A stretch of 20,028 bases of DNA from a virus. Lineage: Duplodnaviria > Heunggongvirae > Uroviricota > Caudoviricetes. Shown here piece by piece: positions 3,001-6,000 of the stretch. The number at the start of each line of letters is the position of its first letter. The first letter of the stretch is position 1. The position numbers are program-made. The DNA is taken from the IMG/VR virus record IMGVR_UViG_2551306526_000001, one strand, 5' to 3'.

Positions 3001-6000
3001 GCTGGTTAACGCGTAAGGCGCGTCGCCAGGGTAACCGCAATGCGTCGAATGTTTATCAGCTTAACGTTGCGAAGCTTCAGGCAGCGGCATTTTCTCAACT
3101 GTCAGATTCTGACCCGTCAAAATCTGACGCATCAAAATCTGACGCATCAAAATCTGACCCGTCAAAATTTGATGCGTCGAAATCTGGCAAAAAAGCGGGT
3201 TTTCACCCGTCAGAATCTGGCGGGGATCCGTCAGTAAAATCAAAACATGATCCGTCAGATAAAAAACCTTCTCGTCCGGACGCTTCGCAACCGGACACGC
3301 AGACGGCTGAACAGGATTTTTTAACTCGCCATCCTGATGCGGTTGTATTCAGCCCTAAAAAGCGCCAGTGGGGGACGCAGGATGATTTGACCTGCGCACA
3401 GTGGCTCTGGAAAAAAATCATCGCCCTGTACGAGCAGGCTGCCGAATGTGACGGCGAGGTGGTTCGTCCCAAAGAACCGAACTGGACAGCCTGGGCAAAC
3501 GAAATTCGCCTGATGTGTGTACAGGATGGGCGTACACACAAACAAATCTGCGAGATGTACAGCCGTGTCAGCCGCGATCCGTTCTGGTGCCGTAACGTGC
3601 TCAGCCCGTCGAAGCTGCGGGAAAAATGGGATGAGCTTTCCCTGCGCTTATCGCCGTCCGTCAGCACGTACACCGAACAACGCGAGGACCCGTACTTCGA
3701 AGCCAGTTACGACAACGTGGACTACAGCCAGATCCCGGCAGGATTCAGAGGGTGATCATGAGTCTGTTAAATGACGTTCAGAAATTCATTGAAGCCCATC
3801 CGGGGTGTACTTCCGGAGACATTGCGGATGCTTTTGCAGGTTACTCACGGCAGCGCGTTCTGCAGTCTGCAAGCAAGTTACGTCAGAGTGGGCGTGTGGC
3901 TCACCGTTGTGAAGGAGATACACGCAGACATTTCCCGCGCCTGACTGAGAGAGCGCAGGAACCGGAACCACAACCAGTTCGATAAACCAGACCTGTGCGC
4001 AATTTCTATGTCGGCACTAACGATCCACGGGTGATTTTGTGCCTGACCCGCCAGGCTGAAGAACTGGAGTCCAGGGGCTTATACCGTCGTGCTGCAACCG
4101 TGTGGATGGCGGCATTCCGTGAAAGCCACTCCCAGCCAGAACGAAACAATTTTCTGGCACGTCGTGAGCTGTGTTTACGGAAAAGCAGCAAGCGCGCTGT
4201 ATCGAGTGATGAGTGGTATCTGTCAGGGAATTACGTGGGGGCGTAATGACGACGTTAACTCAATGCCAGCAGCAGGTGCTGGATATGCTGATTTCTTATC
4301 AGAAAGAGCGTGGCTTTCCGCCAACCAATCAGGAGGTGGCAACCATGCTGGGATACCGTTCAGTGAATGCAGCGGTAGAGCATCTTCGTGCACTGGAGAA
4401 AAAAGGCGTCATCACGATAAAGCGTGGCGTGGCCCGGGGGATAACGCTTCATACCGCGGTGAAGGACGACGACAGCGAGGCGGTCGGGATTATCCGCGCA
4501 CTGCTTGCCGGTGAGGAAAACGCAAAGCTGCGTGCAACCCACTGGTTACATGAGAGGGGCCTGAAAGTATGAAGCTGATCCTGCCTTTTCCGCCCAGCGT
4601 GAACACGTACTGGCGACACCCCAACAAAGGGGCGTTTGCTGGTAAGAGCCTGATAAGCGCGGCGGGGCGAAAATTCCAGAGCGCAGCGTGCGCAGCAATA
4701 GTTGAGCAGTTACGTCGTCTGCCGAAACCAACGTCGGCACCTGCTTCAGTGGAGATCGTGTTGTTTCCTCCGGATAACCGGATCCGCGATCTGGACAACT
4801 ATAACAAGGCGCTGTTTGACGCCCTGACCCACGCGGGTGTGTGGGAAGACGACAGCCAAGTGAAAAGAATGTTGGTGGAGTGGGGACCGGTTATCCCGGA
4901 AGGGAAGGTCGAGATCACTATCAGTAAGTACGAGAAACCGGCGGGTGCAGCCGCCTGATTAAGAGGAGAAACGAAGTATGAATAATCTGATGGTCATTGA
5001 TGGTATTGAAGTTCGTCGTGATGCTTATGGGCGTTACAGCCTGAACGATCTGCACAGGGCTGCCGGTTCTCTGGATAAGCATAAGCCTGCATTCTGGCTC
5101 CGCAATGAGCAAACTGAACGTTTAATAAGCGAGTTGCAGATTTGCAACTCGGTCAATATAGAGCCAGTTAACGTTATTCGTGCGCGGAAATAACCAGGGG
5201 ACGTATGTCTGCAAAGAACGTGGTGTATGCCTATGCAATGTGGATCAGCCCGTCATTCCATCTGAAGGTGATCCGTACTTTCGACATGGTAACCAGCGCA
5301 CCGGAAAAATTATCCGGACAGGCTGCTGACAAGATGCAGGCTGGTGTGATTCTGCTGGACTTTATGCGCCGGGAATTAAACCTGTCTAACTCTTCAGTGC
5401 TTGGTGCCTGTCAGAAACTCCAGGAGGCTGTTGGTTTACCGAATCTGGCACCGCGCTATGCCATTGATGCTCCTGCTGACGCGCCTGATGGCTCAAGCCG
5501 CCCCACGCTGTCACTGAGTGCACTGCTGAAGCAGTATGGTATCCGCCTGACAGCTAATCAGGCATATCACCAGATGGTGAAGCTGGGGATCGTCGAGCAG
5601 CGCGAACGATACAGCCGTACCGCGATTAACAACATCAAAAAATTCTGGTCGCTGACAGCGAAAGGCTGCATGTTCGGCAAGAATATCACCAGTCCCGCAA
5701 ATCCGCGCGAGACGCAGCCGCATTTCTTCGAATCCCGATTCCCTGAGCTGTTAAAGCTGCTCGATACCGTTCATTGAGGTGACCGTGAGAGCACTACTGA
5801 CCCCTGAAGTTGCCCCGCGTATGGGGATCGTATTGTTCAGGCCAGGTTCAGAGTTGATGCCCCTGTTTATGCAGGGGCGTGTCCTGCTGGAGCCTGAGCC
5901 GGAACGTTATTCATCTTTCGCCAGTGGTGCAGTTCCGGCGGCATCACAACCGCTGGCGGATGATCCTGCCGTTCGGGCCGTGTTCCGCAATGAGGCAGTG

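What the first reader, a model, noticed from the sequence alone, without database searches (positions are those of the whole stretch)
4246..4572. Stand-alone LexA DNA-binding domain protein lacking the autocleavage domain
The protein aligns by eye along the whole LexA N-terminal winged-helix domain but ends after ~108 aa, so it has no S24 protease domain. It is translationally coupled to the PerC-like gene upstream and the rusA gene downstream. Such a protein could occupy SOS boxes non-inducibly, or heterodimerise with and interfere with host LexA, uncoupling or modulating the SOS response and prophage induction.
Basis: partly seen in the sequence, partly recalled or inferred. Interest (0 to 1): 0.55.

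Follow-up and report, generated by a model that had tools for sequence, protein, structure and literature searches.

The report
Prophage LexA-like protein lacking protease domain
A very common E. coli prophage gene encodes the DNA-binding half of the SOS repressor LexA plus a short helical tail but no self-cleaving half; it is already annotated as LexA-like, has never been tested, and most likely sits on SOS-type operator sites in a way that DNA damage cannot switch off.

Summary
Window 4246-4572 (+) is an intact 108-aa ORF. Residues 1-68 are a LexA winged-helix domain: Pfam PF01726 E=3e-19, 51% identical to E. coli LexA without gaps, model 1.0 Å from LexA on DNA. There is no S24 protease domain.

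The family is also already in databases (PGAP 'LexA family transcriptional regulator', PHROG 362). It occurs in 2233 of 5426 complete E. coli genomes and in Stx, SfII/SfV and mEp460 phages. A characterised precedent exists: GIL01 gp6, a truncated LexA homologue.

The gene is under strong purifying selection (pN/pS 0.07, 82/82 loci intact). It always lies in the early-right operon between the replication genes and Q.

The recognition helix keeps 7 of 9 LexA residues. Carrier phages are rich in strong SOS boxes: 59 in 80 loci, against 1 and 0 in two control sets. One of these boxes is at 8321-8340 in this window.

Best reading (about 0.5, inferred): a RecA-insensitive LexA surrogate that occupies SOS boxes once lytic genes are on. 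Heterodimerising with host LexA is unlikely. I found no functional study. Moderate interest; new member of a known kind.

The parts
4246..4572 (+). LexA-like gene: 108 codons plus TGA
   Evidence: ORF list and sequence. PF01726 E=3e-19. PHROG 362 E=5e-59 over its full length. Annotated as WP_000210156.1 'LexA family transcriptional regulator' in a 99.6%-identical E. coli locus.
4246..4449 (+). Residues 1-68: LexA-type winged helix-turn-helix (three helices plus a two-strand wing)
   Evidence: AF2 secondary structure H6-22, H28-35, H40-52, E56-58, E66-68. Foldseek top hit 3jso_B at rmsd 1.0 Å over 68 residues, 50% identity. 35 of 68 residues identical to E. coli LexA without gaps.
4360..4401 (+). 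Residues 39-52: recognition helix. Residues 39-47 read SVNAAVEHL, against SPNAAEEHL in E. coli LexA
   Evidence: Alignments. LexA DNA-contact residues S39, N41, A42, E44, E45 are taken from PMC3091678. Here they read S, N, A, V, E.
4450..4467 (+). Residues 69-74: flexible linker
   Evidence: pLDDT falls to about 60 for block 71-80 and below 50 for residues 72-75. This stretch varies in length among relatives.
4468..4569 (+). Residues 75-108: conserved two-helix tail (H75-87, H93-103); inferred dimerisation module
   Evidence: AF2 pLDDT about 89. Pattern EAVxxIRALLxGExxAxxRAxxWLxxRG conserved to about 40% identity. The function is inferred, not shown.
4237..4248 (+). GGGGG Shine-Dalgarno-like run (4237-4241) and the TAATG stop/start overlap with the upstream ORF
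   Evidence: Read directly from the sequence.
4569..4958 (+). rusA (129 aa); its ATG overlaps the TGA of the LexA-like gene (ATGA)
   Evidence: PF05866 E=6e-15. PHROG 34. Sequence.
3752..4246 (+). PerC-family gene (winged helix plus PerC), split here into ORFs 3752-3985 and 3995-4246 by a TAA at 3983-3985
   Evidence: PF06069 E=2e-10 on the second piece. PHROG 1324 spans both pieces. A single 165-aa CDS in L001; G->T at window 3983.
8321..8340 (.). SOS box TACTGTAAAAATAAACAGTG, the candidate target in this prophage; it lies in codons 3-10 of a DNA methyltransferase gene
   Evidence: The only exact CTGT-N8-ACAG in the window. 22.3 bits on an SOS-box matrix whose 19 training boxes score 13-27. 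Conserved at the same place in Klebsiella, Citrobacter, Kluyvera, Kosakonia and Enterobacter prophages.
8313..9365 (+). Site-specific DNA methyltransferase (350 aa) between Q and the lysis genes
   Evidence: ORF. PADLOC MTase_II E=3e-152. Annotation in L001. 66 of 70 IMG/VR loci with this gene carry the LexA-like gene 2.5-6.25 kb upstream.
888..1562 (-). Context: the prophage's main repressor, a full-length S24 'LexA family' (YmfK-like) protein
   Evidence: ORF. Annotation of the matching L001 CDS 3888-4562.

Best explanation
The gene encodes a small LexA-type DNA-binding protein that RecA cannot inactivate. It is made from the prophage's early-right operon, between the replication genes and Q, so it is produced only after the prophage repressor has been inactivated or on infection.

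Shown:
- It is a LexA winged-helix domain with an almost unchanged recognition helix.
- It has no protease domain and no conserved cleavage site.
- It carries a conserved two-helix tail.
- It is under purifying selection.
- Its operon position is fixed.
- It co-occurs with phage-borne SOS boxes.

Inferred:
- The tail makes it a dimer.
- The dimer binds CTGT-N8-ACAG-type SOS boxes. The spacing would be set by the wing-wing contacts of two LexA domains; this point comes from my memory of the 3jso structure paper.
- Because it cannot be cleaved, it re-occupies SOS boxes while RecA* is still active.

Likely targets are the phage's own LexA-controlled genes. In this window that is the methyltransferase box at 8321-8340. 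In relatives the boxes lie inside cI or upstream of a KilA-N gene. Host SOS promoters and LexA-controlled genes of rival prophages could also be targets. The predicted effect is to hand control of SOS-box promoters from host LexA to the phage once lytic development has started.
For: Domain identity.

Recognition helix:
- SVNAAVEHL against LexA SPNAAEEHL, 7 of 9 identical, keeping S39, N41, A42 and E45.
- The characterised gp6, which binds a different palindrome, has SHKTAHRYL.

Plausibility: the free LexA NTD retains some SOS-box binding and repression and must be removed by ClpXP (PMC10584840).

Architecture: tail helices are predicted at pLDDT about 89 after a floppy linker and are conserved across genera.

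Selection: 82 of 82 loci intact; 54 synonymous against 12 non-synonymous variants; pN/pS 0.07.

Fixed position in the order rep -> (PerC) -> (dam) -> LexA-like -> (RusA) -> (KilA-N) -> DUF968 -> Q, seen in E. coli/Shigella, Citrobacter, Kluyvera, Kosakonia, Enterobacter and Klebsiella.

Association with SOS boxes (boxes above 16 bits within +-6 kb):
- 59 boxes in 44 of 80 carrier loci (871 kb).
- 1 box in 80 lambda-NinG-type loci (845 kb).
- 0 boxes in 80 DLP12-RusA-type loci (797 kb); neither control set has the gene.
- Three separate box contexts: cI linker, methyltransferase start, upstream of a KilA-N variant.
- 66 of 70 loci with the SOS-box methyltransferase carry the gene upstream at variable distance.
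- 9 of 14 diverse loci from the cross-genus and phage-record set have a strong box in the DNA fetched around the gene.
Against: - There is no experimental data of any kind, and no paper on this family was found.
- Dimerisation is only inferred. The tool cannot model complexes, and a hydrophobic-moment check was uninformative.
- The contact positions are not fixed in the wider family. Position 44 is never Glu, and position 45 is E, T, G, D, A or L in relatives from Enterobacteriaceae that I expect (general knowledge, not checked here) to share E. coli's SOS box. This gene is also the most diverged of its module: 50-67% identity against 78-90% for RusA. Both points look more like a phage-specific regulator.
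- 36 of 80 carrier loci have no strong box within 6 kb, and mEp390 has none in 14 kb.
- Phage phiNP has two strong SOS boxes and no LexA-like gene between its replication gene and Q. The boxes therefore do not need the protein.
- The association rests on few independent events and on linked mosaic modules.
- My SOS matrix was built from 19 boxes recalled from memory.
Confidence: 0.5

Rival explanations
1. It is a phage-specific transcription factor with its own operator, like GIL01 gp6. The LexA fold was borrowed, but the protein recognises a non-SOS site in the phage or host and activates or represses a particular promoter. It does not act on SOS boxes.
For: - gp6 is exactly such a case: a truncated LexA homologue that binds GaCACAC-GTGTGaC and activates the late promoter P3 (PMC6182141).
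- Contact positions 42-45 vary among genera, and the protein evolves faster than its neighbours.
- Many carrier loci have no SOS box nearby.
Against: - In the E. coli clade the recognition helix is 7 of 9 identical to LexA, whereas gp6's helix is rewritten.
- A search for short inverted repeats over window 1-9000 found no palindrome that stands out as an operator. The module is almost gene-to-gene, with little non-coding DNA.
- Late genes here are under Q antitermination, so a gp6-type late activator is not required.
- The enrichment of SOS boxes in carrier phages would be unexplained.
Confidence: 0.25
2. It is an accessory DNA-binding protein of the replication/recombination module (with RusA and the DUF968 HNH-like protein). 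It would target or tether those enzymes rather than regulate transcription.
For: It overlaps rusA and lies next to rusA and DUF968 in nearly all relatives.
Against: - RusA is missing from some loci that keep the LexA-like gene (Klebsiella ST846 phage, Kosakonia L092, Enterobacter L093).
- DLP12-type rusA loci never carry it.
- A sequence-specific recognition helix close to LexA's has no obvious role in junction resolution.
Confidence: 0.08
3. It interferes with host LexA through protein-protein contact. It would form mixed dimers or act as a decoy for RecA*, altering SOS induction without binding operators on its own.
For: HMMER and BLAST extend the alignment to LexA residue 86, pairing 'LLAGE' with the LexA cleavage-site 'VAAGE'.
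Against: - LexA dimerises through its C-terminal domain (PMC3091678), which is absent here.
- The 'AGE' match is not conserved in relatives (VERESDA, LTRKENA, LSGGDMA, IDDQPGA).
- It lies in a predicted helix, not a cleavage loop.
Confidence: 0.05
4. It is a decaying remnant of a full-length S24 repressor with no function.
For: This window's prophage does show damage in neighbouring genes: a nonsense codon in the PerC gene and two 1-bp insertions in the KilA-N gene.
Against: - 82 of 82 loci are intact at 108 codons, with pN/pS 0.07.
- The same length and tail are conserved across genera.
- Start and stop overlaps with the neighbours are preserved.
Confidence: 0.02

Closest known systems
E. coli LexA N-terminal domain (residues 1-84; PDB 1lea, 3jso), i.e. 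the fragment left after autocleavage
   Same: - Same fold, 51% identity over residues 1-68 with no gaps, and a near-identical recognition helix.
- The free NTD keeps some SOS-box binding and repression (PMC10584840).
   Different: - It is phage-encoded and made as a stand-alone protein.
- It has a conserved two-helix tail in place of the S24 domain.
- E44 is V.
- From my own knowledge, not tested here: it does not end in the ...VAA C-terminus that marks the LexA fragment for ClpXP.
GIL01 (Bacillus tectivirus) gp6, a truncated LexA homologue that activates late promoter P3 (PMC6182141)
   Same: Phage-encoded, LexA DNA-binding domain only, expressed with early genes, in a phage whose promoters also carry LexA boxes.
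   Different: - No detectable pairwise similarity.
- gp6 is 66 aa, ends at the wing and has no tail.
- Its recognition helix is rewritten (SHKTAHRYL), it binds a non-SOS palindrome, and it activates transcription.
- The host is a Firmicute with a different LexA box.
Non-cleavable LexA mutants (LexA Ind-, e.g. LexA3)
   Same: This is the functional analogy of the proposed mechanism: an SOS-box binder that RecA* cannot remove.
   Different: These are laboratory mutants of full-length host LexA that keep the normal dimerisation domain. The comparison rests on general knowledge and was not tested here.
AriS of Listeria phage phi10403S (PMC9043618)
   Same: A phage early protein that down-regulates the host SOS response and so affects co-resident phage elements. 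It is a precedent for the proposed biological role.
   Different: An unrelated protein (AntA/AntB plus ANT/KilAC domains). It is not a LexA homologue, and its mechanism is not operator mimicry.
PHROG 362 / PGAP 'LexA family transcriptional regulator' (e.g. WP_000210156.1; SfV orf42; SfII_44)
   Same: This is the same family. It matches full length at E=5e-59, and the gene is 95-100% identical to thousands of database entries.
   Different: Nothing differs. These are annotation labels only, and no function has been tested as far as I could find.

Membership tests
LexA_DNA_bind domain (Pfam PF01726) | Profile score above the gathering threshold over the whole domain | tested here: met
   69 bits against a cut-off of 23.7, E=3e-19, model positions 1-65 of 65.
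LexA_DNA_bind domain (Pfam PF01726) | Winged helix-turn-helix fold superposable on LexA | tested here: met
   AF2 model with pLDDT 84. Foldseek top hits are 3jso, 1lea and 1jhh; rmsd 1.0-1.3 Å over 67-70 residues.
LexA_DNA_bind domain (Pfam PF01726) | Helix-3 DNA-contact residues S39, N41, A42, E44, E45 | tested here: inconclusive
   Four of five are kept (E44 is V) in this protein and its close relatives. Positions 42-45 vary in more distant family members.
LexA repressor proper (TIGR00498; S24 peptidase family) | C-terminal S24 domain with the catalytic Ser119/Lys156 dyad | tested here: not met
   The protein ends at residue 108. TIGR00498 scores 70.7 bits against a cut-off of 110.95 and matches only positions 1-91 of 203.
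LexA repressor proper (TIGR00498; S24 peptidase family) | Ala84-Gly85 cleavage site in a loop that docks into the active site | tested here: not met
   An 'AG' aligns (A88-G89), but it lies in a predicted helix and is not conserved in relatives.
LexA repressor proper (TIGR00498; S24 peptidase family) | Binding to CTGT-N8-ACAG SOS boxes and repression of SOS genes | not testable with these tools
   Only indirect support: recognition-helix identity and co-occurrence with phage SOS boxes.
PHROG 362 ('transcriptional repressor') | Full-length profile match | tested here: met
   E=5e-59, residues 1-108 against profile positions 1-106 of 106.
gp6-type phage truncated LexA homologues (functional class) | Phage-encoded, LexA DNA-binding domain without the cleavage domain, in the early gene block | tested here: met
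gp6-type phage truncated LexA homologues (functional class) | Sequence relationship to gp6 | tested here: not met
   BLASTP finds no alignment. The two are related only through the shared LexA domain.
gp6-type phage truncated LexA homologues (functional class) | Binds its own non-SOS palindrome at about -43.5 and activates a late promoter | not testable with these tools
   A search for short inverted repeats over window 1-9000 found no palindrome that stands out as an operator. Late genes here depend on a Q antiterminator.

The most novel reading that the evidence does not exclude
A large group of enterobacterial temperate phages, including Stx1, Stx2a, Stx2c and Stx2k converting phages, carry their own uncleavable LexA. 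These same phages place SOS boxes inside their own genomes: in the cI linker, upstream of a KilA-N gene, and at a methyltransferase that in Stx2c phages lies between Q and stx2c.

After induction the phage protein would take over every SOS box in the cell. It would shut the host SOS response, silence LexA-controlled antirepressors of rival prophages, and time the phage's own SOS-box genes. This would be a viral capture of the SOS regulon operating in about 40% of E. coli strains.
Probability: 0.3. Interest if true: 0.75.

Novelty: new member of a known kind. Interest (0 to 1): 0.45.

Why it matters
The SOS response controls prophage induction, Shiga-toxin release, mutagenesis and persistence. 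A phage-made LexA that RecA cannot remove would be a simple way for a phage to end or reshape that response.

The gene sits in 41% of complete E. coli genomes and in Stx-converting phages, yet it has never been tested. The proposed function can be checked with standard tools: gel shifts, SOS reporters in a lexA(Def) strain, and a clean deletion in an inducible phage. The link to phage-borne SOS boxes gives concrete targets to test.

If the protein instead has its own operator, it would be a second, independent case of a phage re-purposing the LexA fold, after GIL01 gp6.

Tried and rejected
- Cleavage-site mimic. HMMER and BLAST pair 'LLAGE' with LexA's 'VAAGE'. I rejected this because the motif is not conserved in relatives and lies in a predicted helix.
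- A phage-specific operator. An inverted-repeat search of window 1-9000 found nothing convincing. CTGT...ACAG pairs at other spacings are scattered and sit in coding DNA.
- A promoter overlapping the 8321-8340 box. The consensus scan found none within the region, so how the box acts on the methyltransferase remains open.
- Amphipathicity of the tail helices as evidence for dimerisation. Hydrophobic moments are unremarkable.
- PADLOC. There is no defence-system match apart from a weak hit to a model named CARF3--CARF (E=4e-4).
- Direct similarity to gp6: none.
A 5-sequence alignment worked.
- The IMG/VR scan with the alignment returned only near-identical copies. Distant context had to come from GenBank phages and GTDB genomes.
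- Eight literature searches found annotation-level mentions only and no functional work on this family.
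Full report
**What is there.** Window 4246-4572 (+) is an intact ORF of 108 codons. Its ATG shares a base with the stop of the upstream ORF (TAATG, 4244-4248). Its TGA overlaps the ATG of rusA (ATGA, 4569-4572). A GGGGG run lies 4 nt upstream of the ATG. A longer GTG-started reading (4213) is not used by homologues or by PGAP.

**Is it a LexA domain?** Yes, well beyond chance.
- Pfam LexA_DNA_bind matches end to end (E=3e-19, 69 bits against a cut-off of 23.7). Other winged-helix families score below their cut-offs.
- phmmer against PDB sequences returns only LexA entries: 1lea at 6e-16, and 3jso and 1jhh at about 1.5e-15.
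- Residues 1-68 align to E. coli LexA with 35 of 68 identities and no indel.
- An AlphaFold2 model (pLDDT 84) has the three helices and two-strand wing. It superposes on LexA in its DNA complex at 1.0 Å over 68 residues.
- The full-LexA model TIGR00498 scores 70.7 bits against a cut-off of 110.95 and matches only its first 91 positions. The protein ends at residue 108, so there is no S24 domain.

After a floppy linker (residues 69-74, pLDDT below 50 at 72-75) come two confidently predicted helices, 75-87 and 93-103.
- This tail is conserved in 20 close relatives.
- It is also conserved in relatives at 40-50% identity, with the pattern EAVxxIRALLxGExxAxxRAxxWLxxRG.
- A few relatives have a different tail or none (Klebsiella Kp4866-6, Enterobacter pulveris, Kluyvera). 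That is how swappable oligomerisation modules behave.
- I infer that the tail replaces LexA's C-terminal domain as the dimerisation element. The tools cannot model complexes, so this is not shown.
- An apparent match of 'LLAGE' to the LexA cleavage site 'VAAGE' is not conserved and lies in a helix. I discard it.

**Where it comes from and how common it is.** The window is an E. coli lambdoid prophage with 98-99.6% identity to several chromosomes.
- The 327-bp gene is present in 2233 of 5426 complete E. coli genomes, with up to 4 copies.
- It is present in 61 phage records. These include SfII, SfIV, SfV, mEp460, the cdtI phage, and Stx1, Stx2a, Stx2c and Stx2k converting phages.
- It is annotated as 'LexA family transcriptional regulator', 'LexA DNA binding domain protein' or 'LexA-like protein', and it is PHROG 362.
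- The family with this tail was found only in Enterobacteriaceae: Shigella, Citrobacter, Kluyvera, Kosakonia, Enterobacter and Klebsiella.
- Short stand-alone LexA domains are common in phages generally.

**Is it functional?** Yes. All 82 loci examined keep an intact 108-codon ORF. There are 49 alleles carrying 54 synonymous against 12 non-synonymous variants, giving pN/pS 0.07. The neighbours in this particular window are damaged. The PerC-family gene has a GAA->TAA change at 3983, and the KilA-N gene has 1-bp insertions at 5183 and 5220. The LexA-like gene is untouched.

**Context.** The order is replication HTH protein -> (PerC) -> (dam) -> LexA-like -> (RusA) -> (KilA-N) -> DUF968 -> Q. 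This order holds from E. coli to Kosakonia, and in mEp390 at 46% identity. The gene is therefore a delayed-early gene of the rightward operon. It would be expressed once the main repressor is gone; here that repressor is a YmfK-like S24 protein at 888-1562 on the minus strand. In most relatives a dam gene sits between PerC and this gene; this window lacks it.

**What does it bind?**

For SOS boxes:
- LexA's helix-3 contact residues are S39, N41, A42, E44 and E45 (PMC3091678). This protein has S, N, A, V, E, and its helix SVNAAVEHL matches LexA's SPNAAEEHL at 7 of 9 positions.
- The one characterised phage truncated LexA homologue, GIL01 gp6, binds a non-SOS palindrome and activates a late promoter (PMC6182141). 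Its helix is rewritten (SHKTAHRYL), and it shows no pairwise similarity to this protein.
- The free LexA NTD keeps some SOS-box binding and repression, which is why cells destroy it with ClpXP (PMC10584840).

Against SOS boxes: in relatives from other Enterobacteriaceae, which I expect (general knowledge, not checked here) to share E. coli's SOS box, position 45 is T, G, D, A or L, and position 44 is never E. The protein is also the fastest-evolving gene of its module.

**An unexpected association.** I built an SOS-box matrix from 19 E. coli boxes recalled from memory; those boxes score 13-27 bits.
- The window has one strong site, TACTGTAAAAATAAACAGTG at 8321-8340 (22.3 bits). It lies in codons 3-10 of a DNA methyltransferase between Q and the lysis genes.
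- In 80 IMG/VR loci carrying the LexA-like gene (+-6 kb, 871 kb) there are 59 boxes above 16 bits, in 44 loci.
- These boxes fall in three contexts: inside the linker-coding part of an SfII-type cI, at the methyltransferase start, and about 100 bp upstream of a KilA-N gene variant.
- Two control sets of equivalent regions have almost none. 80 lambda-NinG-type loci (845 kb) have 1 box, and 80 DLP12-RusA-type loci (797 kb) have 0. Neither set contains the gene.
- 66 of 70 loci with the SOS-box methyltransferase carry the LexA-like gene 2.5-6.25 kb upstream.
- In a set of 14 diverse loci (GTDB species genomes plus three GenBank phages), 9 have a strong box in the DNA fetched around the gene.

Caveats:
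- The loci are related, and the modules are physically linked.
- phiNP has two boxes and no LexA-like gene between its replication gene and Q.
- mEp390 has the gene but no box in 14 kb.

**Most likely mechanism.** I put about 0.5 on the following. A dimeric LexA surrogate that RecA cannot cleave is produced once the lytic programme starts. It re-occupies SOS boxes on the phage and probably on the host chromosome. This closes the SOS-controlled phage genes and may damp the host SOS response and LexA-dependent rival prophages. A precedent for a phage protein that down-regulates SOS exists in Listeria AriS (PMC9043618). The fold, the absence of a protease, the operon position, the conservation and the co-occurrence with boxes are shown. 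Dimerisation, box binding and the physiological effect are inferred.

**Rivals.**
- A gp6-like regulator with its own operator: 0.25.
- A recombination/replication accessory protein: 0.08.
- Interference with LexA through protein contact: 0.05. This is unlikely because LexA's dimerisation domain is missing.
- A dead remnant: 0.02. Conservation refutes this.

**Verdict.** The protein family is already catalogued and has a characterised cousin, so this is a new member of a known kind. Its abundance, its presence in Stx phages and its link to phage SOS boxes make it a worthwhile and easily tested target. I found no functional study.

Noticed in passing
window 8321-8340 (within the methyltransferase gene 8313-9365): A strong SOS box lies in codons 3-10 of a late-region DNA methyltransferase. 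The box is kept at the same place in Klebsiella, Citrobacter, Kluyvera, Kosakonia and Enterobacter prophages, with base changes that preserve the CTGT...CAG consensus. This suggests a host-LexA-controlled methyltransferase. No consensus promoter was found next to it.
   Followed up: partly
L268 (Stx2c phage Stx2c_2409, LC727880.1) 7748-7767; Q at 5704-6453, stx2cA at 9164-10120: In Stx2c-converting phages the same methyltransferase and SOS box sit between the Q antiterminator and the stx2c genes, 1.4 kb upstream of stx2A. A LexA (or LexA-like) binding site therefore lies on the path of the toxin transcript.
   Followed up: partly
L002 (SfII, KC736978.1) 29167-29186; L008 3043-3062; also 26 of the 80 carrier loci and L087/L089: A near-perfect SOS box (TACTGTATATAAAAACAGTA, 27 bits) is embedded in the coding sequence of the cI repressor, in the linker between its HTH and S24 domains. 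Its purpose is unknown; an internal or antisense promoter, or a roadblock, are possibilities.
   Followed up: partly
L057 6765-6784 (11 of the 80 carrier loci): Some relatives have an intergenic SOS box (TACTGTATTTATGAACAGTG) about 100 bp upstream of a variant KilA-N gene, directly downstream of LexA-like and rusA. This resembles LexA-controlled antirepressor genes of other prophages.
   Followed up: no
window 3983-3985: The PerC-family gene (a single 165-aa CDS in the closest genome) is cut in two by a GAA->TAA change. The 'PerC-like gene' upstream of the finding is therefore a fragment that would need a GTG restart at 3995.
   Followed up: yes
window 5183 and 5220 (KilA-N gene 4978-5777): Two single-base insertions relative to the closest genome break the KilA-N gene into ORFs of 71 and 190 aa. 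This is either prophage decay or assembly error.
   Followed up: yes
window 3108-3186 (inside the replication gene 2799-3755): There are 5.3 tandem copies of a 15-bp unit (TCTGACCCGTCAAAA), encoding an SDASK-type repeat. They are probably origin iterons inside the O-like gene, as in lambda. My mapping of the LexA-like gene places a net 15-bp length difference between the window and the closest genome somewhere upstream of 4246; I did not locate it.
   Followed up: partly
L004 (Citrobacter phage phiNP, OR565852.1) 169-188 and 8165-8184: phiNP carries two strong SOS boxes, one in its CI-like gene and one at the methyltransferase start. It has no LexA-like gene between the replication gene and Q, so the boxes do not depend on the phage protein.
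   Followed up: partly
representative-library hits P0131, P0133, P0148, P0151, P0152 and others: Several proteins of 140-350 aa match the query in two separate stretches. They may carry two LexA DNA-binding domains in tandem on one chain, which would be another way to obtain a two-headed binder without the S24 domain.
   Followed up: no
L001 38665-38712 (same prophage type, far right end): Two SOS boxes (19.8 and 14.0 bits) lie upstream of a frameshifted dinI-like gene at the end of the closest prophage.
   Followed up: no
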